Notes under the pieces: generated by a model
What the model was told of the DNA's origin: nothing
What the model saw: the letters and a program-made list of their open reading frames with translations, nothing else
Database searches by the model: none
In this document: positions 3,016 to 31,969 of the stretch, piece by piece
Layout: every line of letters starts with the position of its first letter
How positions within the stretch are numbered: the first letter of the stretch is position 1
From: an uncultured Sulfuricella sp.
GTDB lineage: Bacteria > Pseudomonadota > Gammaproteobacteria > Burkholderiales > Sulfuricellaceae
Assembly: GCA_964451375.1 (NCBI GenBank)
Contig: CAYVIN010000031.1
Span: 1 to 43,597, forward strand
DNA: 43,597 bases
Reading direction: 5' to 3'
Translations under genes and position numbers: made by a program

Positions 3016-6000
3016 TCACAATTCCCCCTCCAGATAATCCAGCCCTGCCGGGGCGCCGGGTTCCTGGGCGGTTGGTTCCAGCGAGGCGACGATGTGGGCG
3101 GCGAGTTTGTCGAGGTTACATTGGTCGATCAGATAGCCGACCGGAACGTTGACGGCGAAGCCGCGTTGCACGGCGACCGAGAGTTGCAGGGCGAGGAGCG
3201 AGTCCAAACCCATCCGCACCAGGGTTTGGGTGGTGTCGAGGCGTTCCGCGTCGTTGCGCAGGAGGATCACTGCAACAGCTTTGCGGAGGAATTTCAGGGT
3301 GACGGCAAGTTGTTCGGCTGGCGGTCTGGCGCGCAGTCCGGCGGCCATATCGACGATGGCCGGGGCGTTTGCGAGGGGGTGGGCGGCGAGGATCAGGCCG
3401 TCGAGAGCCAACACGGTTGTCCCTGTTGCGGCGGCGCGGATATGGATGGCGGCGCGATATCCGGCGCTGTCGGGCTGGAGGCTGGCTTCAAGAATCAGGG
3501 TGTCCGGGGGGAGCGGTCGCAATTCGGCGGCGCGCAGGCTGCGTACGCTGAACCGCGCCGGTTGGCCGCTTTGTAGGTGGATGACGGTGAATAACTGAAA
3601 GCCGGTTTCGAGCAATACGGCAAAGTCGGTCGGCGAGACGAAGTTGCGTTGGTTGATGTCGATAATCGCCGTGGCGCTTTGCGGGCCGATGCGTAATTGG
3701 TCGAGGAAGCGGTGGCGTTCGGTGTATTCAAAACCGGGGTTGCGCAGGGTGTCGTAAAAGCGCGCACCGTCGAGCAGTGGAACAGCCGCGTCGCCAGGCG
3801 TTCCATCCCCCTTTCCAGAGAGGGAACTAGCGCCCTCTTCACTCGCCGTGAAACCAGCCAAACGCATCCACGGACTTTCCGGGTCGCCGCTCTGGATATG
3901 CAGCAACCCTGCGCCGTCAGGGGCGAGAGTGGCGTGAAACAAGGTTCCGGCAGCGATATCCGCAACCAGCGGAGCGACCTCCAGGGCGTTGATCCGGGAC
4001 AAGCCGCTACGCGCCGCCGCAGCGAGGGCCAGCGTCACCGGGGCGCTGGCGAGCAGGATGTCCTGACCGTTCACTTTTAAGCCGCCCAACGGATGGGTGT
4101 TGGGCAATCCATAGCGGTTGGCGTAGTGGCGGCGCGGGTCGCCAGGCACAGGCTGAGGGGTCAGCAGGCCGCCGATGCCCGAACCCGTGGCGTTTTCGTC
4201 GCCGCCGTGGTTAGCGGGGGGCGGGTCGAGCCACAGGGCTTCGCGCTGGAAGCGATAGCCGGGGAACGCCACCCGGGTGGCGGGGCGCGCCGCGTGAAAC
4301 GCCGTCCAGTCAAAATCACAACCGGCTTCGTAAAGCGCCGCGACAGCCTGCATCAAGGCGGCGTTTTCCCCGCCGGGGCCGGATAACGAGGCGACCCAGC
4401 GCGCCGCACCGGCCTTCGGGTTAAGTCCCCCCATGCCGGTGAGGATGGATTTGGGGCCGATTTCCAGGCACACGGTATGGGGTTCGTCGAGGAGTTTTTC
4501 CAGCGCCGGGCCAAACCGCACTGCGCCGCGCAACTGGGCGCACCAGTAATCCGCCCCGGCCATGCGGGCGTCGCCCCATACGCCATCGAGAGTGGCGAGC
4601 AACGGCAGGCGCGGCGGCTGGTAGGCGACCTGCAACGCGGCGGCGCGAAAAGGGGCCAGCGCGGGTTCGAGCAGATGGGAATGGAAGGCGTGGGAAACCT
4701 CCAGCGGCACACAGAGGATGCCTTGTTCCTTGAGTTGTTGAGCGGCGCTCTGGAGATCGCCGAGTTGGCCCGACACCACGCTGCTGTGCGGGGCGTTGAC
4801 GGCGGCCAGGGAAAGGCGCGGCCAGAGGTCGCCGAGCAAACCGGGCAACGCCGCTTCACCGGCATTTACCGCCAGCATCCCGCCGCCGGCGGGGAGCGCC
4901 TGGATCAGTTCGCCGCGCCGCGCCACCAGACGTAGCGCGTCTTCCAGCGAAAACACCCCGGCCAGAGTGGCGGCGACGTATTCCCCGACGCTGTGGCCGA
5001 GCACTACCGCCGGTTCGATGCCCCAACTGCGCCACAATTGCGCCAGCGCGTATTCAAAGGCGAACAAACACGGCTGTGTCCAGCGGGTTTGGCTGATTTG
5101 GCCCGGCTCGTCGCTAAACATCACCTCCAGCAATTTTCCGCCGGCGTGTTTTTCGAAAATTGCCGCGCAACGCTCCAGTTCGGCGCGAAACTGCGGCTCG
5201 CTATGGTACAACTCGCGCCCCATGCCGGGATATTGCGAACCCTGCCCGGTGAACAGGAAAGCGATACGCGGCGAATAAAGAGACGGCGCAGCGCGGTGTT
5301 TTTTGCTTAAGTGGGCGCGGGCTTCGGCGATGCTCGCGGCGGCCACTGCGCGGCGCTCGCGGAAATGACTGCGGCCCCGGTTGGCGGCGCGGCACAAAGC
5401 GGGGAAATCCGCCTCTGCAACCCCGCTCAGATGGGCGGCGAGCGCGCCGCTCAGGTCTTCCAGCGCCTGCGGGGTTTTGGCGCTCAGCGTGAGCACCTGG
5501 CAGGGGCGTTCGGCTGCGTCACCGACGGGGGGCGGCGGGGCCTCGCTGATGAGCAGGTGGGCGTTGGTGCCGCCGATGCCGAAGGCGCTCACCCCGGCGG
5601 CGCGGGGAATGGTTTCGTCCCAGGGACGCGGCGCAGTGACGATGGACAGCGGCAGACGCGCCCAGTCCACGCGCGGATTGGGATGGCGAACATGGAGGCT
5701 GGGAGCCAGGGCGCGCTGACGCAGTTGCAGGCAGGCCTTGAGTAATCCGGTAATACCGGCGGCGGCTTCGAGGTGGCCCAGGTTGGATTTAAAGCTGCTG
5801 ATCAGCAGCGGCGCGCCACGTTTCACGCCATACACGGCGGCCAGCGCCTGGACTTCGATGGGGTCGCCGAGCGCCGTGCCGGTGCCGTGGGCTTCCACCA
5901 CGCCGATTTCAGCGGGACTCATATGCGCATCGGCGAGGGCCTGGCGGATCACCTCCTGCTGGGCCAGGCCGTTGGGTACGGTGAGACCGCTGGTGCATCC

Positions 6001-8436
6001 GTCGTGATTGACCGCCGAGCCGCGTATCACGGCGAGGATGGTGTCCCCATCGGCCTGCGCGTCGCCCAGGCGTTTGAGGATCAGCGCCGCGCCGCCTTCG
6101 GCGCGCACGTAACCGTCGGCCCCGGCGTCGAAGGTGCGGCAGCGCCCAGACAAGGAGAGGGCCTGACCACGCGCCAGGAAGATGCTGATTTCGCCGTTGA
6201 GCAACAGATTCACCCCGGCGGCCACCGCCACATTCACCTCACCCCGGCGCAGGCTCTGGCAGGCAAGATGCACCGCCACCAGCGACGACGAACAGGCAGT
6301 GTCCACCGCCAGACACGGCCCTTTCGCCCCGAGCGTGAAGGCGATGCGTCCGGCGGCGGTGCTGGCGGCGTTGCCGGTGGCGAAATAGCCGCCCAGATCG
6401 AGGCGCTGGCGCGGCGACAGGCGCTGCGCGTAATCGTTGCTGCTGATTCCGACGAATACCCCGGTGGGGCTGTCGAGCAGGCTGGAGGGGGCGATGCAGG
6501 CGTTTTCCAGGGCTTCCCAGGTCAATTCCAGCAACAGGCGTTGCTGCGGATCGAGGGCCAGGGCTTCGCGCGGCGAGATGCCGAAAAACTCGGCGTCGAA
6601 ACCTTTCACGTCGTCGAGAAACCCGCCGAAAGACGCGCGCCGCCGCGTTTCGGGACGGTCGTTGGGGGCCAGCGCGGTCACGTCCCAGCGCGACGCCGGG
6701 ACTTCGCTGACCTTGTCGCAACCTTCTGCGAGCGCCGCCCAGAAGCCCGCCGGCGTATCGATGCCGCCCGGCAACCGGCACCCCGCGCCGACGATGGCGA
6801 TAGGTTCTTCGCTCGCCCCGCGCGGCAACATCGGACACGGTGCGACGGACGGGTGATGCAGGCCGCCGATGGCCCGCGCCAGCCGCGCTGGGGTGGGATA
6901 GTCGAAAGGCAGGGTTTGCGGCAACGCCAGGTCGAGGCGTTTGGCGAGGTTATCCAGCAGCGCCACGCAACCCAGCGAAGTCATGCCGAGGTCGAAAAAA
7001 CCGCCTTCGGCGTCGAGAACATCGTTTTCCCCGAGGTTCAGCAAGGAGCGCATTTCGGCGAGGATCAGGGCAAGGATTTCCGCAGCGGCGGGTAACGAGG
7101 GGGATTCCTGCGCGGTTGCGACGCTCAACGCCGGCGCAATCCCCTCCCCTCCTATTGGCGCGCCGGAGAACCCGGCAACGGGTGCGCCTTCATGGAACAC
7201 CCCCAGATCGAGATCGTGGCCGCGCGCCACCAGTTGCGCCACCGCCAGTTGCACCTGGCGTAACACCGGGCGACCTTCGCGGTTGGTCGCGATAGCCACG
7301 GCGTCACTGCCGCGCAACGTGTCGCGCACGAATCCGCTGAGGAAATCGGCAGTCCCCAATTCGACGAAAGTGCGAATCCCGGATTCGGCAAGTTTTTCCA
7401 CGGTTTCACGAAACCGCACCGGGTGATGCCACTGGCGCACCAGCACTTCCCGTATCGCCGCCGGGTCGGCGGGGAACGGTGCGGCGCTGGCGCAACTCCA
7501 CGCCGCCAGACGCGGCTCATGAATCGCCACTGCCGCGTAAACCGCCGCCAGCGTCGCCGGACTCAGCGGAAAGGCGGGGGTGTGGGCGGGCAAGGTCAGA
7601 CCCGGTAATTCAAAGGCTTTTTCGCCGCGTTGGTTTATCGTCTGGCGCAATTCCTCCAGCGCCCCGGCGTCGCCCCATACCACGGTCTGTTGCGGGCAGT
7701 TGTCGAGAGCGACGAATACTTTCGGTTGGGGCTGGACAAGCAATGGATCGAGCACCGCGCGGGATGCCGCCGATACGGCCAGCATCCCGTGTTTGCCGCT
7801 TGCCGCCGCAGCCGGCGCGCCCTGGGCGAGCCGCGCGGCGATGGCGAGCACCGCGCCGGGGTCTTCCACCATTGCGGCGGCATGGAGCACCGCGTTTTCC
7901 CCGTAGCTGTGCCCCAGTAACGCAGCGGGACGTAAACCCAGCGCAGAAAACAACGCCCACATCGCGAGATCATTGAGCAGCAGGCCGTTCAGCGTAGCGC
8001 CCAACGCGTCGCCGGGCGGCGCGGGAAGCTGCGGATACCCGGCAAACCAGCGTTCCACGCAGGGAAACAGGGCGCGCAGATCAGCCGCCAGGGCGCCGGG
8101 TTTGGCCCCGAAACCGGGGAACAAAACTGCCGTCGGCGCTGCGCTCGACCAGCCATACCAGGCGCTGTTCGCCTGGGTAAAAGAGGGGGCGCTGTCGCTC
8201 TCCAGACGTTTCAGCGCGAAATCCAGCGCGCGCCGCAATTCGGCGGCATTTCCCGCCACCAGAGCGTAGCGGTGTTCCCGCAACGGCAAACCGGCCAGTT
8301 GATGCGCCAAGCCGCCAAGATCAGTCGTATCGGGATCAACCGCCAACAATATCGCCCGTAGCGCGGCGCGCGACTCGGCTGACCAGACCAGCAAATAACT
8401 ATCCCAAACGGGAAGACAAATATCGGGGGAATTCAT
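3016..8436 (-). CDS. Type I polyketide synthase, domain order AT(loading-like)-ACP-KS-AT-DH-like-ACP
   Basis: 1806 aa. GHSYGE (AT 1). LGMTSL (carrier). KS motifs DTACSSSLVAVHLAC, EAHGTGTALGDP and NLGHLEAAAG. AT 2 has FLFTGQGSQ, GHSVGE and AFHS. A hot-dog DH-like region has HPLGG. The C-terminal ACP is MGLDSLLALQL. Confidence 0.85.
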   Translation of the reverse strand: MNSPDICLPVWDSYLLVWSAESRAALRAILLAVDPDTTDLGGLAHQLAGLPLREHRYALVAGNAAELRRALDFALKRLESDSAPSFTQANSAWYGWSSAAPTAVLFPGFGAKPGALAADLRALFPCVERWFAGYPQLPAPPGDALGATLNGLLLNDLAMWALFSALGLRPAALLGHSYGENAVLHAAAMVEDPGAVLAIAARLAQGAPAAAASGKHGMLAVSAASRAVLDPLLVQPQPKVFVALDNCPQQTVVWGDAGALEELRQTINQRGEKAFELPGLTLPAHTPAFPLSPATLAAVYAAVAIHEPRLAAWSCASAAPFPADPAAIREVLVRQWHHPVRFRETVEKLAESGIRTFVELGTADFLSGFVRDTLRGSDAVAIATNREGRPVLRQVQLAVAQLVARGHDLDLGVFHEGAPVAGFSGAPIGGEGIAPALSVATAQESPSLPAAAEILALILAEMRSLLNLGENDVLDAEGGFFDLGMTSLGCVALLDNLAKRLDLALPQTLPFDYPTPARLARAIGGLHHPSVAPCPMLPRGASEEPIAIVGAGCRLPGGIDTPAGFWAALAEGCDKVSEVPASRWDVTALAPNDRPETRRRASFGGFLDDVKGFDAEFFGISPREALALDPQQRLLLELTWEALENACIAPSSLLDSPTGVFVGISSNDYAQRLSPRQRLDLGGYFATGNAASTAAGRIAFTLGAKGPCLAVDTACSSSLVAVHLACQSLRRGEVNVAVAAGVNLLLNGEISIFLARGQALSLSGRCRTFDAGADGYVRAEGGAALILKRLGDAQADGDTILAVIRGSAVNHDGCTSGLTVPNGLAQQEVIRQALADAHMSPAEIGVVEAHGTGTALGDPIEVQALAAVYGVKRGAPLLISSFKSNLGHLEAAAGITGLLKACLQLRQRALAPSLHVRHPNPRVDWARLPLSIVTAPRPWDETIPRAAGVSAFGIGGTNAHLLISEAPPPPVGDAAERPCQVLTLSAKTPQALEDLSGALAAHLSGVAEADFPALCRAANRGRSHFRERRAVAAASIAEARAHLSKKHRAAPSLYSPRIAFLFTGQGSQYPGMGRELYHSEPQFRAELERCAAIFEKHAGGKLLEVMFSDEPGQISQTRWTQPCLFAFEYALAQLWRSWGIEPAVVLGHSVGEYVAATLAGVFSLEDALRLVARRGELIQALPAGGGMLAVNAGEAALPGLLGDLWPRLSLAAVNAPHSSVVSGQLGDLQSAAQQLKEQGILCVPLEVSHAFHSHLLEPALAPFRAAALQVAYQPPRLPLLATLDGVWGDARMAGADYWCAQLRGAVRFGPALEKLLDEPHTVCLEIGPKSILTGMGGLNPKAGAARWVASLSGPGGENAALMQAVAALYEAGCDFDWTAFHAARPATRVAFPGYRFQREALWLDPPPANHGGDENATGSGIGGLLTPQPVPGDPRRHYANRYGLPNTHPLGGLKVNGQDILLASAPVTLALAAAARSGLSRINALEVAPLVADIAAGTLFHATLAPDGAGLLHIQSGDPESPWMRLAGFTASEEGASSLSGKGDGTPGDAAVPLLDGARFYDTLRNPGFEYTERHRFLDQLRIGPQSATAIIDINQRNFVSPTDFAVLLETGFQLFTVIHLQSGQPARFSVRSLRAAELRPLPPDTLILEASLQPDSAGYRAAIHIRAAATGTTVLALDGLILAAHPLANAPAIVDMAAGLRARPPAEQLAVTLKFLRKAVAVILLRNDAERLDTTQTLVRMGLDSLLALQLSVAVQRGFAVNVPVGYLIDQCNLDKLAAHIVASLEPTAQEPGAPAGLDYLEGEL

Positions 8437-8479
8437 GTGGGGATAGGACGCCGCTTGTTGTTTTTGTTAATGAATAGAT

Positions 8480-8571
8480 GTAACTACTCAGGGTGGCTGT
8501 GTTTTGCTCCTTCCCCCTTGCAGGGGGAAGGGACTGGTGCGGTGGTATGCCACCACCTCCTGAGTAGTTAC
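8480..8571. repeat. MITE-like element, 92 bp, perfect 13-bp terminal inverted repeats GTAACTACTCAGG/CCTGAGTAGTTAC, internal hairpin CTTCCCCCTTGCAGGGGGAAG
   Basis: TIRs and central palindrome read directly from the sequence. Related copies are at 8618-8985 and 23198-23384. Confidence 0.65.
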
Positions 8572-8617
8572 GAATAGGTTTGAAATAACTTCCCGATTTG
8601 GAAAACGAAAAAAATGG

Positions 8618-9124: not shown

Positions 9125-9307
9125 CTATTTCGCAATATCCGCAGGTTTGGCGCGCGGGTTGAAAAGTATCATCAGCAGAATCGCCAGGGGCGGCGAGATC
9201 AGGAGGGAGATAAAAAACGCTCCCCAAAACCCGACCCGGGTATGCCGCCCGGCAAAACCCGCCACCAAACATAGCGCCACGTAGGCCAGCACCAGAAGAA
9301 ACAGCAT
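9125..9307 (-). CDS. Small two-TM membrane protein (60 aa), last gene of the operon
   Basis: ORF 14 nt downstream of the DUF697-like gene. It has two hydrophobic helices. No family recognised. Confidence 0.35.
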   Translation of the reverse strand: MLFLLVLAYVALCLVAGFAGRHTRVGFWGAFFISLLISPPLAILLMILFNPRAKPADIAK

Positions 9308-9320: not shown

Positions 9321-10052
9321 TCAGGCGGGTTGGGGCTGCGCTTCGGCGGCGGGGGCGACGGGTTCCTCGGCTGCGGCTGCGGGCGCTGCGGCTGCCGCGC
9401 TTTCCTTGCACTTGCCGGGCATCAGGCACACGGCAGATTCCTGACCGCGTTTGTAGAGGTCGCGGAAATACGCGGAATATTTCTGCGATTGGAAATCCGC
9501 CAGGGTGCCGCCGATTTCAAAGTGGCCGATGAACAGGTTGCCGATGGCGTAGGTATAGGCGGCAGACATCAGGGGCAGGGACAACATCCCGATGGCGGTG
9601 CCCGCGCCGGGAATCAGCTTGCCCAGGCTCGCGCCGATGATCAGTGCGGAACCGGCTGCACCCAACGTGCCGAACAATGAGGTCACAATGCCGCGCGCGG
9701 CTTTTTCGGAGAACGGCACTTCGTAAAGATCGCACAGACGTTTGACCAGCGTCACCTGGGCCGTGACCGCAGCCGCCAGATCAAGCAGCGGGAAAGGCAG
9801 CAAACCGACGCCGAGGCACACCATCATGTGGTCGCGAACGCGGGTTTCGGCCTGAAGCAGGCGGGCTTTGCGCCCTTCTGCAGTGAGGAATGGCGCATCC
9901 GGCGCAGCGGTTTCGGCATTTTGGGTGGTTTCTGCAACGGCTTCGGGGCTGGCGTTTTCGGCATTCATGGTGGTCTCCTGTGGGGTGGTTGACAAGACTT
10001 CGGCGTCACTGACATCTGCGGTAGTACGGCTGGGGGATTTCCTGGGCATCTC
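9321..10052 (-). CDS. DUF697-like (YcjF-related) membrane-associated protein; start at MPRKSPS with GGAG RBS
   Basis: The conserved core LLPFPLLDLAAAVTAQVTLVKRLCDLYEVPFSE..IPGAGTAIG..AYTYAIGNLFIGHFE resembles DUF697 proteins. The C-terminus is an Ala/Pro-rich tail. A GGAG lies 8 nt before the ATG at 10050-10052. Confidence 0.45.
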   Translation of the reverse strand, partial: EMPRKSPSRTTADVSDAEVLSTTPQETTMNAENASPEAVAETTQNAETAAPDAPFLTAEGRKARLLQAETRVRDHMMVCLGVGLLPFPLLDLAAAVTAQVTLVKRLCDLYEVPFSEKAARGIVTSLFGTLGAAGSALIIGASLGKLIPGAGTAIGMLSLPLMSAAYTYAIGNLFIGHFEIGGTLADFQSQKYSAYFRDLYKRGQESAVCLMPGKCKESAAAAAPAAAAEEPVAPAAEAQPQPA

Positions 10053-10123
10053 GGGCGCTCCTTTCGTTAACCTGCGGATCAAGTGTGCTACTTTTTTAAC
10101 TACAAAGTGATGAAGGAACATCA

Positions 10124-11677
10124 TTATTTTCCTTGCGTAACGGCGGTGGCGGAACCCGCAGCCGGCGCGACATTGTTCGCTGCCGTCCAGCGCCGCCACA
10201 AGCCGCCCAGACCGCCGTCAATGCGCCGCCCGCCGCCGCTTGCAGCCACCGGCTGGCTGGCGGCGTTTTCCGGGCTGCCGCCGGTGGCGACGGGCGCCGC
10301 GTTATGGGCAGGCGCGGCGCGTGACGGCATACGGTCGGAATGGACTTCGGCGCGCTGGTTTTCGAGCGCGCCCGGCCCGACCGGAATCGCCTGATCGGTG
10401 CGCTGCGACGGTTCGCCGGCTTGGGTGACGCGCCCGCTTGCATTGGTGACGATGACGCCGCCGGGTTCCCCGGTATTGACGGGACGGGTCGAGGGAAAAG
10501 CGTTGCGCGGGGTATTCGTGCCGACTGCCGGGGCTTGCGCTTCCATACGGGGGGCGCGGTAGTCCTGGCTCCCCAATTGGCTTTGTGGTGCGGCTGCGCC
10601 GTTGCTTACCACATTCTCATTGGGAAAACGCGGGGCCGGGGTCGGGACGGAACGATCATGTTTTTCCAGCATGTCGGCGACAATTTCCCGCGCAGTGCTG
10701 CTGTTCATGTGGGGTAACGCTGCGCTCGCAGCAGACTTGGCGGGGGCCGTCTTGGCCGCCCCCGGCGCGGCGGAATCCGGGGTGTTGGCGGCGATATCGC
10801 CGCCCAGAATCAAGGGCAACTGCCCTTTGCCGTTGCCCATGATAACCACCTTGGCATTGGGCGAACGGGCCACGTCCACGGTAGCTTCGATGCCGCGCCA
10901 AGTAAGCAGTTGCGGAGTCAGTGACGCGCCCACCACTTCGTAAAAACCGCGCAGGCCTTCGGCCTCGATACGCAGCCGTTCCGCTTCCTTTTTCTGGGTT
11001 TCGACCATGAAGTTGTAGGCGTACATCGATTGTTCCTGGGCCAGCTTGCGTTCGATGGCGGCGGTGATGGCCTGCGGCAGGGAAATTTCGGTAATGATGA
11101 AATCGCTGAATTCAATCAGTTCGTTAAGCGGGTGAACACGTAATGCTTTCTCGACTTCCGCCTGCATCTTGTCGTAACCGACCGTATACATTTCGTGGGA
11201 GCGATAGAGAGCGACCATTTCGCGTATCGATCCGGTGACCAACGGCAACACCACCAGATCGCGGTAAAACGGCCCGATCTGCTGGTGCAGCTTGGGAACA
11301 CTTTCGCGCTTGGGTTTGAACAGCAGGGTGGCGCGCACCGTGACCGCCATCCCTTCGCGGCTGTAAGCCACCATTTCGACGTTAATCGGCTGCATCCGCG
11401 CCTCGTAGACGTAGAACTGGTTCCACGGGAACTTGGTGACCAGCCCCTCGCCGTACACGTCGGCAATCTGGGTGCCGCCAAACAGCAGGTCGAACATCAC
11501 GCCGATCTGGCCGGGCCGCACGGTGACGAAGATGCTGCGCCAGAACACCAGCATCAGAAAACCGATGGTGACCAGGATGCCGAGCACTTTCAGGGTGTTA
11601 TCCGGTGAAAAAATCCGTTGCATCACACTGGGGGATGGCGTTTGCGGGTTTGCGGAAGGTTCCGTTGCGCTTGTCAT
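10124..11677 (-). CDS. SPFH/band-7 (prohibitin/HflK-like) membrane protein with a low-complexity C-terminal extension of about 230 aa
   Basis: N-terminal TM anchor followed by a band-7 domain (..VRPGQIGVMFDLLFGGTQ..VYGEGLVTKFPWNQFYVYEARMQ..), then a long Ala/Pro/Gly/Ser-rich tail. Confidence 0.7.
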   Translation of the reverse strand: MTSATEPSANPQTPSPSVMQRIFSPDNTLKVLGILVTIGFLMLVFWRSIFVTVRPGQIGVMFDLLFGGTQIADVYGEGLVTKFPWNQFYVYEARMQPINVEMVAYSREGMAVTVRATLLFKPKRESVPKLHQQIGPFYRDLVVLPLVTGSIREMVALYRSHEMYTVGYDKMQAEVEKALRVHPLNELIEFSDFIITEISLPQAITAAIERKLAQEQSMYAYNFMVETQKKEAERLRIEAEGLRGFYEVVGASLTPQLLTWRGIEATVDVARSPNAKVVIMGNGKGQLPLILGGDIAANTPDSAAPGAAKTAPAKSAASAALPHMNSSTAREIVADMLEKHDRSVPTPAPRFPNENVVSNGAAAPQSQLGSQDYRAPRMEAQAPAVGTNTPRNAFPSTRPVNTGEPGGVIVTNASGRVTQAGEPSQRTDQAIPVGPGALENQRAEVHSDRMPSRAAPAHNAAPVATGGSPENAASQPVAASGGGRRIDGGLGGLWRRWTAANNVAPAAGSATAVTQGK

Positions 11678-13637: not shown

Positions 13638-13731
13638 AATAGTTCCTAAATAAACACTTACAAATCCGAATATTACATCACCTCACCCACACGAGCGGGG
13701 GGGGGTGGTGCTTCGAACAACTGTGCCGATA

Positions 13732-27200: not shown

Positions 27201-30200
27201 GGCTGGCCGTCAGCGTTGCCGTACACCGGCAGCGCCGCCGCGCGGAAGGCGACGCCGGCAATGCGCGTCGCCAGGGTTTCCTGGGCGCTCGCCACATAGG
27301 GCGAATGGAACGCCCCGCTCACCGGGAGGCGGCGGAAGTTGAGCGCGGCGGCCTGAAGCGCCGTTTCGGCGGCCTCGATATCCGCCACGCTGCCGGACAG
27401 CACCACCTGGGCCGGCGCATTGTGGTTGGCGATCACCACTTTGGCGTCGAGACCGGCCAGCACGGCGGTCACCGCGCTACGCTCGGCAAGCACCGCCGTC
27501 ATTGCGCCTGCGCCGCACGAGTGCATTGCCGCACCGCGTTGCAGGGATAACCCAAACAGGGTGGCGAGGTCATAACAACCGGCGGCGTATAACGCGGTGA
27601 ATTCGCCATACGAATGCCCGGCCAGGAAATCCGCATGGATACCCGCTGTTTCGAGCACCCGCAGCCAGGCGGCGGAGATTGCGCCGATGGCGATTTGCGC
27701 CGCCCGCGTATCGGTGAGGCGCGCCGAAAAACGTTGTTCGAGTTCCGCATTAAACGCGGCGGGCGGGTAAATCAGGCGATCCAGGCCGATGGCGGCGGGG
27801 TGCGCGAGGGCGTAAGTCTGGACGGCTTCTTCCACCACCCTGCGGAAAGGTTCGAGATAAACGGCGGCCTCGCGCCCCATGTGGGGACGCTGGCTGCCCT
27901 GGCCGGGAAACAGGAACACCAGACGGCCTTCACGTGCGGCGCGGCACGGGCCGAACCAGACGTTGGGGATTTGTTCCGCACTGCCTTTTTCCAGCGCACC
28001 TGCGACATTTTCCAGGGAACGCAGCAGTTCCGCGCGGTCGCCGGCAGCCAGCGCCAGCGCCCACTCGGCGCGGGGCTGTTCGGCGACGCGCCGCGCAGCG
28101 GCGGCGGCGATGGCCGGCAGCGCCAGTTCGGCGCGCGCCGCGAGGCGTTGCAATTTGCGGACTTCACCCAACAACGCAGCGGCGTCGGCGGCGCTCGCGA
28201 CAAACGGGATGCGCGGCCATTCCGCCGCACCCAGCGGCGCAGCTGCGCCATTTTGATATTCCTCCAGCACGGCATGGGCGTTGGTGCCGCCGAAGCCGAA
28301 GGCGCTCACCCCGGCGCGGCGCGGCGCATCGACCGGGCGGAACCAGGGCAATGGGGCGGCGGCGAGGAACACCGGACAATCCGCCTGGGTCAGCGGGGCA
28401 ATGGGGTTGTCCACCGCCGCCTGCGGCGGCAGGGTCTGGTGATACAGCGCCAGGGCGGCCTTGGAAATCCCGGCCAGTCCGGCGGCGGTCTTGATATGGC
28501 CGAGTTGGGCTTTGGCCGAGCCGAGCAATACGCTTTCGGGATGCGCGGCGTGGGCCAGGAGTTCGCTGGTAATCGTCTCCAGTTCGGCGCGGTCGCCGAC
28601 CTGGGTGCCGGTGCCGTGGGCTTCGTAGAGGCCGATGCGGGATATCGGGAACCCGGCGATGTCGTAGGCGCGCCGCACCGCGCGGCGCTGCCCGAGGGGA
28701 CGCGGGGCGGTCATGCCGAGACTGCGCCCGTCGCTGGAGCCGCCCACTGCGCGGATCACCGCATAAATCCGTTCGCCGGCCCGTTCGGCATCGGCCAATG
28801 GACGCAATACCAGCCCCACCACCCCTTCCCCCAATACGGTGCCGTCGGCGGCGCTGTCGAAGGCGCGAATTCTGCCGGTTTTGGATAACGCCCCGACAGT
28901 GCTGAAATTGACGAACTGGTCGGGCGTCAGGGATACGTCGGCCCCCGCCACCACGGCGGCTTTGCAACGCCCGGCGGCGAGTTCGGCGGTGGCGATGGCA
29001 AGCGCCGATAGGCTGGAGGCGCAGGCGGAATCCACCGCCAGATTGGGGCCGCCCAGATCGAGACGGTTGGCGATGCGCCCGGCGGTCACCGAATTCAAAC
29101 TGCCGGGAAAGGTTTCTTCGGTGCGTTTCGGCACCCGTTCGCGGAGCCGTTCGACGCTGTCCGGGTCGAGCAGGAACGGTGCGCAGGCCGACATCACCAG
29201 TTTGTTGCCGTTGAATCCGGCCACGTCGGAACACGCGGCGATCACTGCGGTGTCCTCGCGGGGGAAACCGTTTCCGTCGTTCCAGCCGGCGTCGTCGAGG
29301 GCGCGCCGCGCCACGTCGAGGGCGATGAGCTGGGCGGGCGAGATGCTGGTGACGGCTTTGGGCGGCACTCCGTAACGTAGCGGTTCAAAAATGAAGGGCT
29401 GAATCAACCCGCCCCAGCGCCCGCTACAGGCTTCCGCACCCTTCTGCGGATTTTCCTCGAAGAGCAGCCGCCAATCCCAGCGGTCGCGGGGAATTTCGTC
29501 GATGTGTACTTCCTTACTCAACAAACACCGCCAGAATTCGCCGGGGTCGCCGCCGCCGGGGGTTTGCATGGCGATGCCGACAATCGCGATATCGAGCGGT
29601 TCGGCAGCCAGCCGCAGCGGCGCGTCCGCTTCGGCGTAGGTCGTCAGCAGCGCCGCCCCGCCGACGCTGACGCGTTCATGGAGTTGCCCCAGGGTGGTTT
29701 GCTCGCACAGCAGGGTAGCCACCTCGCCGGCCATGTACATGCCATCCGCCAATTGGCGTTCCGCCGGGACTTCCAGCAACTGCCCGGCGCTTCGCTCCAA
29801 GCCCTTGGAGGCCAGGCGCAGGCGGCCCAGCGCCAGCTCGTCAAGTTCGGCGCGGAACGTTTCCGCCGGGGTGGCGGCGGCGGCGAGGCGCACCCGCGCC
29901 GCCGACCAGACGTGCGCAAAAGGAGTGTCCAGGCAGCGCACCGCGTGGCCGCGCCCGCTTTCCAGATTGACGGTGCGGCAGCTTTCCAGCACAGCCTGAC
30001 GGAAGGTCTCGGTGATTGCGCCGCTTTCCACCGCTTCGTCGCAGGTGAGATAGGCGGTGCCCATCAGGACGCCGGCCTTGACGCCGCGTTCGATCAGCGG
30101 GGCGAGCACCGCCATCGCCAGCATCGCTGAGATATCGTCATGGATGCCGCCGGCCAGCAGCACATGGAGTTTTTCATAGCCGCAGGCGGGCGGGGTGGCG

Positions 30201-31672
30201 AGTAATTCGTGGACGACACCTTCCCACAACACGAAGGAATGCAGCGGCCCGACGTGTCCGCCGCATTCGCGGCCTTCCAGAACGATGCGGCTAACCCCCT
30301 GCTCCACCAGTGCGCGAGCGCGGCGTGGGGTGGGCGCATGGACATAGGCGGCGATGCCATCCTGTTCGAGACTGTGCGCCTGATCGGCGCGGCCCCCGGC
30401 AATCAGTGCAAAAGCCGGCTTGCAGCGCCGTACTTCGCTGATCTGCGCCGCCAGCAGCGGCGCATCGGCAAACCCCAGCAAGCCGACCCCCCACGGACGG
30501 CCCGCGCAAACGCGGGCGGTTTCGTCAAGCAATGCGGCGACCCGTTCCCCCGGCAGCAGCGCCAGGGCCAGCATCGGCAACGCGCCGTTGGCGGCAATCG
30601 CGGCGGCAAATTCGGGAATGTCGCTAACCCGCGTCATCGGCCCCTGGACAATCGGATAAAGCGTCCCGTGGCTAGCCGCCAGCGGCCCCTGAGGCGCTAA
30701 CGCCTCAGCCACTTTGGCGGCATTTTGGGCAAATTGGCGGGGCGCATCAAAAACCGCCCGCGCCAGCTTGGGTAAACGCGGATGAACCCGGCGCAGCGCC
30801 GCCGAGAGCCCCGCGCCCTGCCCCAAGAGCAGCGGCGCGCCGCCGTCGCGCCGCGCCAATTCGGTTTTCGCGCGGGTTATCCAGGTGTTGTGGAGTTGCG
30901 CGGCGTCCTGGTTTTCCGCTCCGGCGCGCGCTTCCAGCTCCAGCGCCAGGGTTTCCAGGGCGCGTCCGCCGGGCGCGGCGGGATGCACCAGCACCCGCAC
31001 CGGAAACCCCAGCGGCTCGCCGACCGCGATCAGTTCAGTGCCTTCGAGGGTTTCGCGCAGACGCGCCGGAAGATCCAGCGGCCCTTGCGGCCAGGCGCTC
31101 AACTGGTCGTCCAGCACGACGCCCGCCGCACCGGCCAGCGCGCAGGCGGGGGCGCTGTATAACCCGACGCCGCCACGCACCAGTAGCGGTCGCCGGGCGA
31201 TCTGCGCCCAGCCGGCTGCCGCCAGACGCTGCATTTGCACGAAAGTGGACTGGCTGCCGGCGATCCCGCCGGCTTCTGCGCCGACCAGGATATAGCCGGC
31301 CAGATAGGGAAGTTTTGCCGCCGGGAAATTTAGATTGAGTTCGAGCAGACGTTCAACCGAGCGGACTTGTACCCAGCAGCGCCCGCCGCTTACGCCGGGT
31401 TCGGCAGGGTCATCGAGCAGCCATTCGATCCGCGTCTCGCCGCGCAAAGCCGGTTCCGCCTCGTGGGGCGCAACCCCGGCGAGAATGGCCGCATCGAACG
31501 GGAGCGCCGCCAGTATGGCGCTCAGCCGGGCGGGCTCGAGAGCCAAAAACATCTCGCGGGGGAAATATACCTGCGCGCCGACCCGCGCCAATGCGACGAC
31601 TTCGGCCACATCCGCGCGCCCCAGCGCGATCACGCAATGTTGTGTTCCTTCCTGTCCGGTTACGGTTCTCAT
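24284..31672 (-). CDS. Giant PUFA-synthase-like protein: N-terminal degenerate NMO-like region, PfaD/FabK-type enoyl reductase, KS, AT, Pro/Ala-rich linker, 2 x ACP (LGIDSIKRVEI), KR
   Basis: ER motifs are YPIVQGPMTRVSD and RECGGHVGP. KS motifs are DSACASSL, EAHGTGTQVGD and KAQLGHIKTAAG. AT motifs are LFPGQGSQ, GHSYGE and AFHSPY. Two carrier domains have ELGIDSIKRVEIVEEI and DLGIDSIKRVEIAELI. The KR has a Rossmann N-subdomain and SDYALANEALNF. ATG at 31670-31672 has a GAGGGGGA RBS. Confidence 0.85.
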   Translation of the reverse strand: MRTVTGQEGTQHCVIALGRADVAEVVALARVGAQVYFPREMFLALEPARLSAILAALPFDAAILAGVAPHEAEPALRGETRIEWLLDDPAEPGVSGGRCWVQVRSVERLLELNLNFPAAKLPYLAGYILVGAEAGGIAGSQSTFVQMQRLAAAGWAQIARRPLLVRGGVGLYSAPACALAGAAGVVLDDQLSAWPQGPLDLPARLRETLEGTELIAVGEPLGFPVRVLVHPAAPGGRALETLALELEARAGAENQDAAQLHNTWITRAKTELARRDGGAPLLLGQGAGLSAALRRVHPRLPKLARAVFDAPRQFAQNAAKVAEALAPQGPLAASHGTLYPIVQGPMTRVSDIPEFAAAIAANGALPMLALALLPGERVAALLDETARVCAGRPWGVGLLGFADAPLLAAQISEVRRCKPAFALIAGGRADQAHSLEQDGIAAYVHAPTPRRARALVEQGVSRIVLEGRECGGHVGPLHSFVLWEGVVHELLATPPACGYEKLHVLLAGGIHDDISAMLAMAVLAPLIERGVKAGVLMGTAYLTCDEAVESGAITETFRQAVLESCRTVNLESGRGHAVRCLDTPFAHVWSAARVRLAAAATPAETFRAELDELALGRLRLASKGLERSAGQLLEVPAERQLADGMYMAGEVATLLCEQTTLGQLHERVSVGGAALLTTYAEADAPLRLAAEPLDIAIVGIAMQTPGGGDPGEFWRCLLSKEVHIDEIPRDRWDWRLLFEENPQKGAEACSGRWGGLIQPFIFEPLRYGVPPKAVTSISPAQLIALDVARRALDDAGWNDGNGFPREDTAVIAACSDVAGFNGNKLVMSACAPFLLDPDSVERLRERVPKRTEETFPGSLNSVTAGRIANRLDLGGPNLAVDSACASSLSALAIATAELAAGRCKAAVVAGADVSLTPDQFVNFSTVGALSKTGRIRAFDSAADGTVLGEGVVGLVLRPLADAERAGERIYAVIRAVGGSSDGRSLGMTAPRPLGQRRAVRRAYDIAGFPISRIGLYEAHGTGTQVGDRAELETITSELLAHAAHPESVLLGSAKAQLGHIKTAAGLAGISKAALALYHQTLPPQAAVDNPIAPLTQADCPVFLAAAPLPWFRPVDAPRRAGVSAFGFGGTNAHAVLEEYQNGAAAPLGAAEWPRIPFVASAADAAALLGEVRKLQRLAARAELALPAIAAAAARRVAEQPRAEWALALAAGDRAELLRSLENVAGALEKGSAEQIPNVWFGPCRAAREGRLVFLFPGQGSQRPHMGREAAVYLEPFRRVVEEAVQTYALAHPAAIGLDRLIYPPAAFNAELEQRFSARLTDTRAAQIAIGAISAAWLRVLETAGIHADFLAGHSYGEFTALYAAGCYDLATLFGLSLQRGAAMHSCGAGAMTAVLAERSAVTAVLAGLDAKVVIANHNAPAQVVLSGSVADIEAAETALQAAALNFRRLPVSGAFHSPYVASAQETLATRIAGVAFRAAALPVYGNADGQPYPADAQEANRRLQAHMTAAVEFVAQIENLYAAGARCFVEVGPGAVLTRLVGKILPDRGVTALALDETPEMGGLLGVLGQLWLAGEDVAWENLLPESWYVSSLEGLLEQPAPQIPATAWWVGGQDARPVDEQSPLGESGVKPQLDFEEAQKMREEAGRTPQPADTAAPAAPPATDMVRLVADFQDTMRVFLSSQERILMAALGAAPASGAICAASLMPSMPVAVSVPQVAAPPLAATPAAIPAPAPAAAPVLDRAALAALVREVVASCSGYPESVLSPKHDLESELGIDSIKRVEIVEEIQRRLPPGQFAQLAGRSGELSRAKTLDQITDILSAVSGGVAAVPAPASAAPATLSAAELGDVVRRVVSELTGYPAQLLGANQDMEADLGIDSIKRVEIAELIVRNLPAQFAERLRSRPDALARAKRLQDIDAILAGLLDDAPPAAPLVTSLPPAAVAADEPETPPQYDDSCPGYTVVFEPAPLSPLPLTSPLAGKRVLVAEGDPALTHAVITHLRDLGVNPVVLPWALACRAGEVDKFLANGAVDAVLQLSPTRRPGHSALDSEAWMQAALHAVLPVAQHCAPRWTEPVSWLRWLTVTATGGAPGQNGAPEGESALLQALGGGVAGMLRCLHIEHPGATVRIADLPVEWDTALAAQTIVAELHAATDQETVSWLDGERKLMRLAAWESAPVEPGEAFRHILAIGGIRGITAHCLLSLAGPQTAISIIARGEPALQEDPASAAIPDMNGLRAYFAAALAQEGQAPQARDIERHARSVFRDRAARAALAKLREAGSTVTVFAADALDRSAVAAAIHAAQQQNGAPDCVVHGAGIIEDKRLIDKKPESWRRVIDTKLYPVLALGAHLETAKLRKMVFFGSVAGSIGNLGQSDYALANEALNFAGKAFAARWPGVSVSTINWGPWAGLGMASDAVNQQFAERGIKTIQPAAGAAFFSAAVWNGPLQLVAGAGYWETA

Positions 31673-31969
31673 ACGCCGTCCCCCCTCAACACAAACAACC
31701 AGCAAAACAGTAACCCATTCGAATCGTCTTTCCGCGAAATCTCAGGCGAGGATACTAGCATGGTTGGTCGCGTAAAAAACCGGGTTTTCCCCTACTTGAA
31801 ATAGGTGATTTGGTGGATTTTCCGATCAAAGTTATCATCAAAACACGCCGCCCTGCGCCGGTCTTTCTGAAATAGCGTTACACTTTCAACAAGGTACGGC
31901 GCGAGCGCAGGTGTTGTTCCGACCCGCCGGATTGCCGGGAACCTTTTCAATTTCAGGGAGGCGATTCAA

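What the first reader, a model, noticed from the sequence alone, without database searches (positions are those of the whole stretch)
3016..31705. Non-canonical PUFA-synthase-like / type I PKS (+NRPS remnant) secondary-lipid gene cluster with built-in PPTase and dedicated efflux
About 29 kb of co-directional genes encode three synthase proteins. The first is ER-KS-AT-ACP-ACP-KR. The second is AT-DH-PPTase. The third is a modular AT-ACP-KS-AT-DH-ACP PKS. The locus also has a free carrier protein, a SyrD-type ABC exporter, an RND pump and an NRPS docking/C-domain remnant. The tandem ACPs carry the PfaA-type 'LGIDSIKRVEI' motif, and the ER is the PfaD/FabK (nitronate-monooxygenase-like) type. Both are diagnostic of PUFA-type iterative synthases by established knowledge. 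But the locus has no PfaC-type KS-CLF-DH-DH subunit, fuses the ER to the PfaA-like protein and fuses the PPTase to an AT-DH protein. It couples all of this to a conventional PKS module and an NRPS interface, as in zeamine- or fabclavine-like hybrid lipid-polyamine/peptide pathways. I do not recognise this exact architecture as a described cluster type. The product is likely a long-chain (hydroxy/enoyl) acyl or polyketide lipid that is exported.
Basis: partly seen in the sequence, partly recalled or inferred. Interest (0 to 1): 0.85.

Follow-up and report, generated by a model that had tools for sequence, protein, structure and literature searches.

The report
PUFA-synthase-like lipid–PKS cluster, NRPS end lost
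This is a real, GC-rich gene cluster in which a fatty-acid-type megasynthase appears to feed a lipid into a polyketide module, of a kind already catalogued by genome mining (Gloeobacter "Type O", Ottowia thiooxydans) though its product is unknown; in this contig the final peptide-adding enzyme is cut off after 115 codons.

Summary
All genes lie on the minus strand and the stated domain orders are correct.

I add the following:
- a degenerate second ER-like barrel at the N-terminus of the PfaA-like protein;
- a PLOD-type glycosyltransferase;
- an SPFH protein, a DUF697 protein and a conserved 60-aa membrane protein;
- OEP and MFP partners for the RND pump.

The fusions are not assembly errors. 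The same gene order recurs in four independent assemblies at 51–67% identity.

The architecture is not undescribed.
- ER-KS-AT-ACP-KR, then (KS-)AT-DH-PPTase, then a ~95-aa carrier protein is the core of the Gloeobacter and Roseicyclus clusters (Shulse & Allen Type O for Gloeobacter).
- The same core (ER fused to the PfaA-like protein, plus an AT-DH protein without KS-CLF; no PPTase domain or small carrier seen there) feeding an AT-ACP-KS-AT-ACP-C-A-T-TE hybrid was described for Ottowia thiooxydans in 2026. That cluster is 43%, 27% and 45% identical to this one.
- DH-PPTase fusions fill at least 193 50%-identity clusters.

No member has a known product.

In this contig the NRPS gene stops after 115 codons at a repeat junction. 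A non-orthologous RND pump has also been inserted.

It is not a true PUFA synthase and not zeamine-like. I rate it a new variant of a known, uncharacterised kind, of moderate interest.

The parts
24284..31672 (-). PfaD-PfaA fusion ('PfaDA'), 2462 aa. Domains: pseudo-ER (30677-31672), ER of FabK/NMO type (about 29795-30661), KS (28415-29593), malonyl-type AT (27047-27919), ACP1 (about 26207-26479), ACP2 (about 25904-26176), KR (24440-24955).
   Evidence: Pseudo-ER. It is 64-65% identical to P0149 and P0150, 43% to the Ottowia protein and 45% to the Gloeobacter protein.
23401..24258 (-). Glycosyltransferase, GT_PLOD-like (GT-A type), 285 aa.
   Evidence: Pfam PF25342 at 36.6 bits, above the 27-bit cut-off. 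There is a weak PDB LH3 GT-domain match. It holds the same position in the P0150 locus and in L086, where it is 82% identical.
17606..23326 (-). Tripartite RND efflux set: OEP 21860-23326, MFP 20715-21830, AcrB-type RND 17606-20692. It is inserted between the GT gene and the AT-DH-PPTase gene.
   Evidence: The set is absent from this position in the P0150 locus. The pump beside PfaDA in L086 is not orthologous, at 29% and 19% identity.
13827..17603 (-). AT-DH-PPTase, 1258 aa. Domains: PfaB-like AT (GHSNGEN, no malonyl-binding Arg context; about 15804-16736), PKS-type DH (about 14604-15506), Sfp-type PPTase (about 13998-14408).
   Evidence: The N-terminal residues 200-290 align with KS-AT linkers. 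Full-length relatives: P0002 (90% identical), P0003 (51%). DH-PPTase region only: P0279 (54%); L084 (65%). It is 27% identical to the Ottowia AT-DH.
13335..13637 (-). Small stand-alone carrier-like protein of about 95-100 aa, with an invariant SID serine motif.
   Evidence: It follows the (KS-)AT-DH-PPTase gene in L082, L084, the P0150 locus, Gloeobacter (L170) and Roseicyclus (L171).
11691..13325 (-). ABC exporter with fused permease and ATPase, of cyclic-peptide/SyrD type.
   Evidence: TIGR01194 scores 278.9 bits against a 286.2 cut-off; PRK10522 scores 284 bits. It is 79-85% identical in L082 and L084.
10124..11677 (-). SPFH/Band-7 (flotillin-like) protein, 517 aa.
   Evidence: It is conserved in L082, L084 and the P0150 locus. 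It also lies next to lipid-primed PKS-NRPS genes in L104 and L112.
9321..10124 (-). DUF697 membrane protein. The likely start is ATG 10124, overlapping the SPFH stop codon.
   Evidence: It shows the same conservation as the SPFH protein.
9125..9307 (-). Conserved 60-aa hydrophobic protein.
   Evidence: Near-identical small ORFs sit at the same position in L084 (59 aa) and L082 (50 aa).
3016..8436 (-). Type I PKS, 1806 aa. Domains: loading AT (PfaB-like, GHSYGEN; 7237-8154), ACP_L (6868-7065), KS (5689-6807), malonyl AT (HAFH; 4438-5259), DH-like (3367-3879), ACP (3082-3294), and a C-terminal docking tail ...LDYLEGEL.
   Evidence: The loading AT is a paralogue of the AT in AT-DH-PPTase, at 33% identity. 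Relatives: P0030 (90%), P0031 (67%), Ottowia P0076 (45%).
1321..1665 (-). 5' remnant of the partner NRPS gene: TubC_N docking domain plus the first ~55 residues of the C domain. The gene is broken after codon 115.
   Evidence: It is 67% identical to the first 115 residues of the intact L084 NRPS. Homology ends exactly at the 51-nt repeat 1269-1319, which matches 753-803 at 98%.
1913..2828 (-). Variable cargo between the PKS and NRPS genes: an orphan HigA-type antitoxin (2517-2828) and a 203-aa ORF with no family match (1913-2524).
   Evidence: The equivalent slot holds a TumE/HTH pair in L084. It holds unrelated sequence in the 90% relative L169.

Best explanation
The locus is a GC-rich, probably horizontally acquired biosynthetic island. 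It belongs to the class of 'PfaDA-type secondary-lipid synthase feeding a PKS-NRPS', the same logic as the uncharacterised Ottowia thiooxydans cluster. Its lipid core matches the Gloeobacter/Roseicyclus-type synthases (Shulse & Allen Type O for Gloeobacter).

Proposed mechanism, with each step marked shown or inferred:

1. The PPTase domain primes all carrier domains (inferred; the catalytic motifs are present).
2. ER'-ER-KS-AT-ACP-ACP-KR works with the DH of the AT-DH-PPTase protein. Together they supply every activity of an iterative fatty-acid cycle: KS, malonyl-AT, ACP, KR, DH and ER. They build a long, largely saturated or hydroxy/enoyl acyl chain on the tandem ACPs. The domain set is shown. 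The product type is inferred from the absence of a FabA-type dehydratase/isomerase and of KS-CLF.
3. Two paralogous PfaB-like ATs appear to lack the malonyl-binding arginine context. One sits on AT-DH-PPTase and one at the N-terminus of the PKS. They would relay the finished acyl chain, possibly via the small free carrier protein, onto the PKS loading ACP (inferred). This step is supported by L112, where the same position is held by a fatty-acyl-AMP-ligase-ACP loader.
4. The KS-AT(malonyl)-DH-like-ACP module adds one C2 unit. It has no KR, so the expected intermediate is a beta-keto acyl thioester (inferred).
5. In intact relatives a docking-C-A-T(-TE) NRPS adds an amino acid and releases the product. 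The domain content is shown for Ottowia P0076. For L084 only the docking and C domains are seen, and for L082 a fused 3314-aa PKS-NRPS with a condensation domain.
6. The conserved glycosyltransferase may add a sugar. The SyrD-type ABC pump, with the SPFH/DUF697/60-aa membrane proteins and an outer-membrane/RND system, may export or localise the amphiphile (inferred).

In this contig the NRPS gene is truncated after 115 codons, and I detected no thioesterase or reductase domain in any ORF I scanned. As assembled, the line lacks its release module. It either makes only shunt or stalled lipid, or it is a recently disabled copy. All other reading frames are still intact.
For: - Domain content and motifs.
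- PfaA-like versus modular KS-AT. TIGR02813 is the best model for the big protein (828 bits, against 623 for the generic PKS model). The generic PKS model is best for the 1806-aa protein (1205 bits, against 356).
- Conserved synteny in independent assemblies:
  - P0150 locus: OEP-like, PfaDA, GT_PLOD, AT-(DH)-PPTase, 97-aa protein, ABC, Band7, DUF697, PKS.
  - L084: AT-DH-PPTase, 95-aa protein, ABC, Band7, DUF697, 59-aa protein, PKS, a toxin-antitoxin pair, then an NRPS with docking and a full C domain.
  - L082: the same order, with a fused 3314-aa PKS-NRPS.
  - L086: RND, OEP, PfaDA, GT.
- Ottowia L087: GT, ER-KS-AT-ACP-KR, AT-DH, AT-ACP-KS-AT-ACP-C-A-PCP-TE. It is described in PMC13291983.
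- Core triad in Gloeobacter and Roseicyclus.
- DH-PPTase fusions: 193 representatives at E<=1e-30.
- Paralogous ATs.
- ABC-SPFH-DUF697 trio next to a FAAL-ACP-KS-AT-DH-KR-ACP-C-A-PCP gene in L112.
- NRPS truncation at a repeat.
- GC of 0.66-0.69 in the synthase genes against 0.54-0.58 in the flanks.
Against: - No product is known for any member of this class, so every chemical step is inferred from domain logic.
- In L082 the genes upstream of AT-DH-PPTase are not PfaDA/GT. The lipid synthase and the PKS-NRPS part may therefore not always be linked, and the contig ends before this can be settled.
- The PKS DH-like domain keeps HxxxGxxxxP but has E in place of D in the DxxxQ motif, and it scores 23.5 bits against a 23.7-bit cut-off. 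Its activity is unclear.
- The arginine-less AT reading is by eye only.
- The RND pumps beside different members are not orthologous, so a dedicated efflux role is only suggested.
- The NRPS truncation lies 1.3 kb from the contig end in a repeat-rich stretch. It could be a mis-join in a metagenome assembly rather than a real deletion.
Confidence: 0.7

Rival explanations
1. The PfaDA, GT, AT-DH-PPTase and small-ACP genes form a self-sufficient Type-O-like secondary (glyco)lipid synthase. Its product goes to the envelope through the pumps. The PKS-NRPS part is a separable add-on that is decaying here, so the cluster still makes its main product.
For: The triad PfaDA, (KS-)AT-DH-PPTase and ~94-aa protein occurs without any PKS-NRPS within the 8 kb fetched on either side in Gloeobacter and Roseicyclus. 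PfaDA and GT stay adjacent in three loci. All lipid-synthase reading frames are intact while the NRPS is broken. L082 has the PKS-NRPS half without PfaDA upstream.
Against: In the window, the P0150 locus and L084, AT-DH-PPTase and the small ACP are tightly co-linear with ABC-SPFH-DUF697-PKS. The PKS begins with a paralogue of the PfaB-like AT plus an ACP, which is hard to explain unless it receives the lipid. Ottowia has the PKS-NRPS directly abutting AT-DH.
Confidence: 0.22
2. It is a genuine polyunsaturated fatty acid (EPA/DHA-type) synthase with unusual gene fusions.
For: Tandem ACPs with LGIDSIKRVEI, a FabK/PfaD-type ER, and a PfaA-like KS-AT.
Against: No KS-CLF and no FabA-type DH/isomerase was detected in the three synthases or in the other scanned ORFs of the window. 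The only DH domains are PKS-type PS-DH. The PfaA model score of 828 is below its curated cut-off of 1010. The PPTase carries the LSISH (hShxH, P1b') motif that Shulse & Allen associate with Types M-T, not with the PUFA types.
Confidence: 0.02
3. It is a zeamine/fabclavine-type pathway that makes a polyamino-alcohol lipid joined to a peptide-polyketide.
For: It combines PUFA-like, PKS and NRPS parts, as in zeamine (PMC3547906, PMC5811116; listed).
Against: No aminotransferase domain, no thioester reductase, no KS-CLF subunit and no multimodular NRPS was found. In the 2026 survey the Ottowia-type cluster is discussed apart from its six named clades and is called markedly distinct from the other Burkholderiales (clade III) pathways; the zeamine/fabclavine clusters form clade I.
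Confidence: 0.02
4. The unusual fused proteins are artefacts of assembly or frameshift errors that join separate genes.
For: The window is a metagenome-type contig from NCBI, and its left 1.3 kb is repeat-rich.
Against: The same fusions are present in independent assemblies from JGI, ENA, Logan and NCBI isolates, including Ottowia, Gloeobacter and Roseicyclus. They are also present in hundreds of cluster representatives.
Confidence: 0.03

Closest known systems
[quoted passage not shown] It is described but uncharacterised in El Arnouki Belhaji et al., JACS Au 2026 (PMC13291983).
   Same: Both have ER fused to KS-AT-ACP-KR (43% identity) and an AT-DH protein without KS-CLF (27% identity). Both follow this with an AT-ACP-KS-AT-ACP... 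hybrid (45% identity over the PKS part). Both carry a glycosyltransferase and nearby OEP/ABC export genes.
   Different: - Ottowia has no PPTase fused to AT-DH.
- No free small ACP, SPFH, DUF697 or 60-aa gene was seen between its genes.
- Its GT is of the GT1/EryCIII type, not PLOD type.
- Its PKS and NRPS are one 2911-aa protein ending in TE, and no DH-like domain was detected in that module.
- It has an extra NAPAA-type NRPS upstream, according to the paper.
- The window has split PKS and NRPS genes with docking domains, toxin-antitoxin cargo between them, an inserted RND pump and a truncated NRPS.
Shulse & Allen (2011) secondary-lipid synthase Types M-O (for example Gloeobacter, Type O; Renibacterium, Type M), and the Flavobacteriales 'clade VI' clusters of PMC13291983.
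   Same: All have fused pfaDA, a pfaBC-like protein carrying a PPTase domain, and an hShxH-type PPTase motif. In Gloeobacter morelensis and Roseicyclus marinus I found the same triad, including the homologous ~94-aa protein. PfaDA is 45% identical to the Gloeobacter and Roseicyclus proteins.
   Different: - Gloeobacter keeps a KS on the second protein (KS-AT-DH-PPTase) and a DH on the first.
- Neither the Gloeobacter nor the Roseicyclus locus has a PKS-NRPS, the ABC-SPFH-DUF697 set or the PLOD-type GT within the 8 kb fetched on either side.
- Clade VI clusters have many NRPS modules.
- I did not test KS phylogeny, so type assignment rests on best hits and synteny.
Canonical Pfa (PUFA) synthase pfaABCDE.
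   Same: PfaA-like KS-MAT-tandem-ACP-KR, a PfaD-type ER, a PfaB-like AT and a PfaE-like PPTase activity.
   Different: There is no PfaC (KS-CLF plus two FabA-type DH/isomerase domains), so there is no route to methylene-interrupted cis double bonds. The gene fusions also differ.
Zeamine (zmn) and fabclavine (fcl) clusters.
   Same: Co-localised PUFA-like, PKS and NRPS machinery with transporters.
   Different: Those pathways contain PfaC-like KS-CLF, aminotransferase domains, a thioester reductase and multimodular NRPSs. None of these is present here.
FAAL-primed lipopeptide PKS-NRPS loci with ABC-SPFH-DUF697 (metagenome loci L112 and L104, uncharacterised).
   Same: The same accessory trio (SyrD-like ABC 28-31%, SPFH 33-38%, DUF697 35-37% identity) lies next to a lipid-primed KS-AT-...-ACP-C-A-PCP megasynthase.
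   Different: In those loci the lipid starter comes from a fatty-acyl-AMP ligase, not from a dedicated PfaDA synthase and AT-ACP loader. Their module has a KR.

Membership tests
Canonical Pfa PUFA synthase (pfaABCDE) | PfaA: KS-MAT-tandem ACP-KR that passes the curated PfaA model | tested here: not met
   The architecture is present, but TIGR02813 scores 828.6 bits, below the curated cut-off of 1010.1.
Canonical Pfa PUFA synthase (pfaABCDE) | PfaC: KS-CLF plus two FabA-type DH/isomerase domains | tested here: not met
   No second KS/CLF and no FabA-type DH was detected in the scanned ORFs of the window. The DH domains are PS-DH type. The rest of the genome is unavailable.
Canonical Pfa PUFA synthase (pfaABCDE) | PfaD-type (FabK/NMO) enoyl reductase and a PfaE PPTase | tested here: met
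   NMO/FabK hits at residues 349-637. ACPS and 4PPT_N hits with GIDVE and WCAKEA motifs. Both are fused to other domains.
Canonical Pfa PUFA synthase (pfaABCDE) | Produces long-chain PUFA | not testable with these tools
   This needs expression and lipid analysis.
PfaDA-type secondary-lipid synthase (Shulse & Allen Types M-O; Gloeobacter/Roseicyclus-type) | ER fused N-terminally to KS-AT-ACPn-KR | tested here: met
   It is 45% identical to the Gloeobacter morelensis and Roseicyclus marinus proteins.
PfaDA-type secondary-lipid synthase (Shulse & Allen Types M-O; Gloeobacter/Roseicyclus-type) | Second protein with (KS-)AT-DH and a C-terminal PPTase | tested here: met
   The same protein is found in L170 (KS-AT-DH-PPTase) and L171 (AT-DH-PPTase). 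There are 193 representatives at E<=1e-30, and the 150 best listed mostly match across DH and PPTase in a single stretch.
PfaDA-type secondary-lipid synthase (Shulse & Allen Types M-O; Gloeobacter/Roseicyclus-type) | Small ~95-aa carrier-like protein immediately downstream (my observation, not part of the published definition) | tested here: met
   The proteins are homologous at 28-40% identity with an invariant SID motif.
PfaDA-type secondary-lipid synthase (Shulse & Allen Types M-O; Gloeobacter/Roseicyclus-type) | PPTase P1b' motif hShxH (Types M-T) rather than (F/S)NxSH | tested here: met
   LSISH at residue 1127. The motif definition comes from PMC3098273.
PfaDA-type secondary-lipid synthase (Shulse & Allen Types M-O; Gloeobacter/Roseicyclus-type) | KS falls in the Type M-O clade of the reference KS tree | not tested
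I have only best-hit evidence.
[quoted passage not shown] | Fused pfaDA plus fused pfaBC-like AT-DH lacking KS-CLF | tested here: met
[quoted passage not shown] | PKS module beginning with AT-ACP, co-linear with the pfa-like genes | tested here: met
   It is 45% identical to Ottowia P0076 over 75% of the query.
[quoted passage not shown] | Complete NRPS module (C-A-T-TE) in the cluster | tested here: not met
   Only the docking domain and 55 residues of the C domain remain. An NRPS with docking and a full C domain follows the PKS in L084 (contig ends in C), a fused PKS-NRPS with a condensation domain is present in L082, and a complete C-A-PCP-TE module is present in Ottowia.
[quoted passage not shown] | Associated glycosyltransferase | tested here: met
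   A GT is present but of a different family: GT_PLOD here, Glyco_transf_28/EryCIII-like in Ottowia.
Zeamine/fabclavine pathway | PLP aminotransferase domains, a thioester reductase, PfaC-like KS-CLF and a multimodular NRPS | tested here: not met
   None of these domains was found in the scanned ORFs of the window.

The most novel reading that the evidence does not exclude
The window represents a rare, undescribed sub-family; only about five metagenomic loci were found. In it a Type-O-like iterative lipid synthase hands its acyl chain to a one-module PKS-NRPS through a relay of two arginine-less PfaB-like acyltransferases and a free mini-ACP. The product would be a new class of glycosylated beta-keto-acyl amino-acid (possibly tetramate-type) lipid. 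A dedicated membrane platform of flotillin-like SPFH, DUF697 and a 60-aa protein would organise synthesis or export. The tandem pseudo-ER/ER would form an intramolecular FabK-like dimer.
Probability: 0.2. Interest if true: 0.65.

Novelty: new variant of a known kind. Interest (0 to 1): 0.42.

Why it matters
No cluster of this PfaDA/AT-DH-PPTase class has a known product, although the proteins are common. The protein search returned thousands of significant matches to the big protein, the best being ER-KS-AT-ACP-KR(-DH) homologues in Nevskiales, Gloeobacter, Roseobacter-group bacteria and others.

This sub-family shows the lipid synthase physically wired to a PKS-NRPS through AT-ACP loading. 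That gives a testable model for how PUFA-synthase-like enzymes off-load chains into assembly lines.

It also links SPFH/DUF697 membrane proteins to lipid-primed megasynthases.

This particular copy lacks its release module as assembled. It is therefore a poor candidate for product discovery, and intact relatives (the P0150 locus or the L084 source) would be better targets.

Tried and rejected
- Exact look-ups to find the source organism gave only unnamed NCBI/Logan records. The PfaDA contig could not be retrieved, so taxonomy remains unknown.
- A genome-collection scan with AT-DH-PPTase returned only distant AT matches, plus a 30% AT-DH-PPTase match in Blastopirellula that I did not pursue.
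- A metagenome scan with the PKS DH-ACP tail found nothing.
- The second metagenome scan did not recover the rest of the L082 contig. It returned generic PKS relatives, but it incidentally revealed L104 and L112.
- Pfam found nothing in the N-terminal 339 aa. Only a profile-profile comparison and a structure model exposed the FabK-like fold.
- No tRNA or Rfam family is present in the window.
- A literature search for any characterised Type M-O product found none.
- I rejected the PUFA-synthase, zeamine-like and assembly-artefact readings. The reasons are given under the rival explanations.

Full report
**What is there**

All large genes in 3016-31705 lie on the minus strand. Pfam and NCBIfam scans give the following gene order.

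- 24284-31672: a 2462-aa protein with NMO/FabK-type ER, KS, AT, two ACPs and KR.
- 23401-24258: a 285-aa GT_PLOD-type glycosyltransferase.
- 17606-23326: an OEP, an MFP and an AcrB-type RND pump.
- 13827-17603: a 1258-aa AT-DH-PPTase.
- 13335-13637: a ~100-aa protein.
- 11691-13325: a SyrD/cyclic-peptide-type ABC exporter.
- 10124-11677: an SPFH/Band7 protein.
- 9321-10124: a DUF697 protein.
- 9125-9307: a 60-aa hydrophobic protein.
- 3016-8436: an 1806-aa AT-ACP-KS-AT-DH(like)-ACP polyketide synthase.

Both ACPs of the first protein carry LGIDSIKRVEI. The underlying DNA is a 303-nt tandem repeat.

The DH of the second synthase passes the PS-DH threshold when its sub-region is scanned alone (31.9 bits). 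It keeps the HTFGR, FHGPAF and LLDTIGQ motifs. The PPTase keeps GIDVE and WCAKEA.

**Refinements**

The annotated start of the big gene is ATG 31672.

Its first ~330 residues had no Pfam hit. Three results identify them as a diverged second FabK-like barrel.
- A profile of this region aligns in register with a profile of the ER domain (hhalign E = 6.8e-4; EAGGxxG opposite ECGGHVGP).
- An AlphaFold model has pLDDT 75 and pTM 0.71.
- Its best PDB matches are FabK and NMO structures (E about 1e-6, TM about 0.5).

The catalytic His of the GGH motif is replaced, so I read it as a pseudo-ER. The region is of conserved length in 13 homologues, including those from Gloeobacter and Roseicyclus.

The two unusual ATs are paralogues at 33% identity. 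One is in AT-DH-PPTase and the other is at the N-terminus of the PKS. By eye, both lack the arginine context that the two malonyl-type ATs retain.

**Are the fusions real?**

Yes. The same genes in the same order occur in independent assemblies.

- An ENA contig (P0150 locus, PfaDA 64% identical): OEP-like, PfaDA, GT_PLOD, AT-(DH)-PPTase, 97-aa protein, ABC, Band7, DUF697, PKS.
- A Logan contig (L084, PKS 67% identical): AT-DH-PPTase, 95-aa protein, ABC, Band7, DUF697, 59-aa protein, PKS, a TumE/HTH pair, then an NRPS beginning with a TubC_N docking domain and a full C domain.
- JGI contigs (L082 and L083, 51% identical): the same order, with a fused 3314-aa PKS-NRPS.
- An NCBI MAG contig (L086, 65% identical): RND, OEP, PfaDA, GT.

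The small protein is conserved with an invariant SID serine, and its L082 orthologue hits PP-binding. The 60-aa protein is also conserved.

**The NRPS remnant and local decay**

ORF 1282-1665 has a TubC_N docking domain and 55 residues of a C domain. It is 67% identical to the first 115 residues of the intact L084 NRPS.

Homology ends at nucleotide 1321. That is exactly where a 51-nt repeat begins: 1269-1319 matches 753-803 at 98% identity.

Downstream of the break lies a tandem duplication of the brnT upstream region and 5' end, followed by an intact BrnT/BrnA pair.

I detected no thioesterase or reductase release domain in any ORF I scanned. As assembled, the line lacks its terminating module. 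The break is 1.3 kb from the contig end in repeat-rich DNA, so an assembly mis-join cannot be excluded.

The slot between the PKS and NRPS genes is variable.
- Here it holds an orphan HigA-type antitoxin and a 203-aa ORF.
- In L084 it holds a TumE/HTH pair.
- In the 90% relative L169 it holds unrelated sequence from about 70 nt after the PKS stop.

The RND set is absent from this position in the P0150 locus. The pump beside PfaDA in L086 is not orthologous (29% and 19% identity, against 65% for PfaDA). Pumps were therefore recruited independently.

**Comparison with what is known**

Shulse & Allen (2011, PMC3098273) defined secondary-lipid synthase Types M-O. Their PPTases carry the hShxH motif, and the window has LSISH.

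The 2026 survey by El Arnouki Belhaji et al. (PMC13291983) describes two relevant cases.
[quoted passage not shown] The paper likens this arrangement to the Renibacterium (Type M) cluster.
- The Ottowia thiooxydans DSM 14619 cluster has pfaD and pfaA fused and a fused pfaBC that lacks KS-CLF. A PKS-NRPS directly follows, and a glycosyltransferase is present.

I retrieved that Ottowia contig (AUGX01000034.1). It encodes a GT1, ER-KS-AT-ACP-KR (2350 aa, 43% identical) and AT-DH (905 aa, 27% identical across AT and DH). It also encodes AT-ACP-KS-AT-ACP-C-A-PCP-TE (2911 aa, 45% identical over the PKS part).

Gloeobacter morelensis has PfaDA(+DH), KS-AT-DH-PPTase and a 94-aa protein. Roseicyclus marinus has PfaDA and AT-DH-PPTase followed by a 94-aa protein. 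These small proteins are homologous to the window's.

A full HMMER search with the DH-PPTase half found 193 cluster representatives at E<=1e-30. Those listed mostly match across DH and PPTase in one stretch, at the C-terminus of 1000-1900-aa proteins. The fusion is therefore common. Only the close sub-family (at least 50% identity) is rare.

ER-KS-AT-ACP-KR(-DH) homologues are abundant in Nevskiales and other lineages.

I found no report of a product for any of these clusters.

**How it probably works**

The lipid core supplies a complete iterative cycle: KS, malonyl-AT, two ACPs, KR, a DH in trans and ER. It has no FabA-type isomerase and no chain-length factor. I therefore expect a mostly saturated or hydroxy/enoyl chain rather than a PUFA.

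The PKS starts with a PfaB-like AT plus an ACP. In the metagenomic locus L112, a fatty-acyl-AMP ligase plus ACP sits in that position of a KS-AT-DH-KR-ACP-C-A-PCP megasynthase, next to homologues of the same ABC, SPFH and DUF697 genes. This supports two readings: the AT-ACP didomain is a lipid loader, and the membrane trio is an accessory of lipid-primed assembly lines.

The single PKS module has a malonyl-type AT (HAFH motif) and no KR. Its DH-like domain is borderline: HxxxGxxxxP is present, DxxxQ reads ExxxQ, and it scores 23.5 bits against a 23.7-bit cut-off.

In relatives, a C-A-T(-TE) module follows (complete in Ottowia; only partly seen in L082 and L084). The family product is then most simply a glycosylated long-chain beta-keto-acyl amino-acid lipid that is exported. 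All chemical steps are inferred.

**Rivals**

- The lipid core might be self-sufficient, as it appears to be in Gloeobacter and Roseicyclus, with the PKS-NRPS dispensable. L082 lacking PfaDA upstream keeps this reading alive, at about 0.2.
- A true PUFA synthase and a zeamine-like pathway both fail their defining features.
- An assembly artefact is excluded for the fusions.

**Verdict**

The locus is a new variant of a known but chemically uncharacterised kind. As assembled, this copy lacks its release module.

Noticed in passing
window 30677-31672 (-): The N-terminal ~330 aa of the PfaA-like protein is a diverged second FabK/NMO-like TIM barrel without the catalytic His (a pseudo-ER). It sits directly ahead of the real ER and is conserved across the PfaDA family. 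It could form an intramolecular FabK-like pseudo-dimer.
   Followed up: yes
window 1913-2828; L084 13696-14408; L169 5490-6310: The gap between the PKS and NRPS genes is a variable cargo slot. It holds an orphan HigA-type antitoxin plus a 203-aa ORF here, a TumE/HTH pair in the 67% relative, and unrelated sequence in the 90% relative.
   Followed up: partly
window 590-1320 and 80-632: There is a tandem duplication of the brnT upstream region and 5' end: 607-674 matches 890-957, and 753-803 matches 1269-1319. It lies next to an intact BrnT/BrnA toxin-antitoxin pair. The outer copy forms the breakpoint of the NRPS gene.
   Followed up: partly
window 8437-9120, 13650-13826, 23187-23400: REP/MITE-like GC-rich hairpin repeats lie in or near intergenic gaps of the operon, one arm overlapping the start of the OEP ORF as listed. 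8912-8964 matches 13731-13783 at 92%. 8496-8583 is an inverted match to 23187-23367. The gap between the small membrane gene and the PKS is unusually long, about 690 nt.
   Followed up: no
L112 39-18166 and L104 (metagenome loci): Homologues of the SyrD-like ABC, SPFH and DUF697 genes flank a FAAL-ACP-KS-AT-DH-KR-ACP-C-A-PCP megasynthase. This suggests the trio is a recurring accessory module of lipid-primed PKS-NRPS clusters.
   Followed up: partly
window 17606-23326 versus L086 365-5018: RND/OEP pumps lie beside the PfaDA gene in two relatives but are not orthologous (29% and 19% identity). This implies independent recruitment of efflux genes.
   Followed up: yes
window 31886-43597: The low-GC right flank holds a barnase-type ribonuclease-domain protein (PF00545), an M90/MtfA peptidase, an MBL-fold hydrolase, phosphoribulokinase (37985-38860), an IS with a DDE transposase (39079-40446) and an AbiEii toxin (42647-43546). 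I could not assign a source organism.
   Followed up: partly
L171 15211-18753 (Roseicyclus marinus): In Roseicyclus the PfaDA and AT-DH-PPTase genes are separated by TauD-like, citrate-synthase-like and methyltransferase genes. This hints at a different tailoring chemistry on the same lipid core.
   Followed up: no
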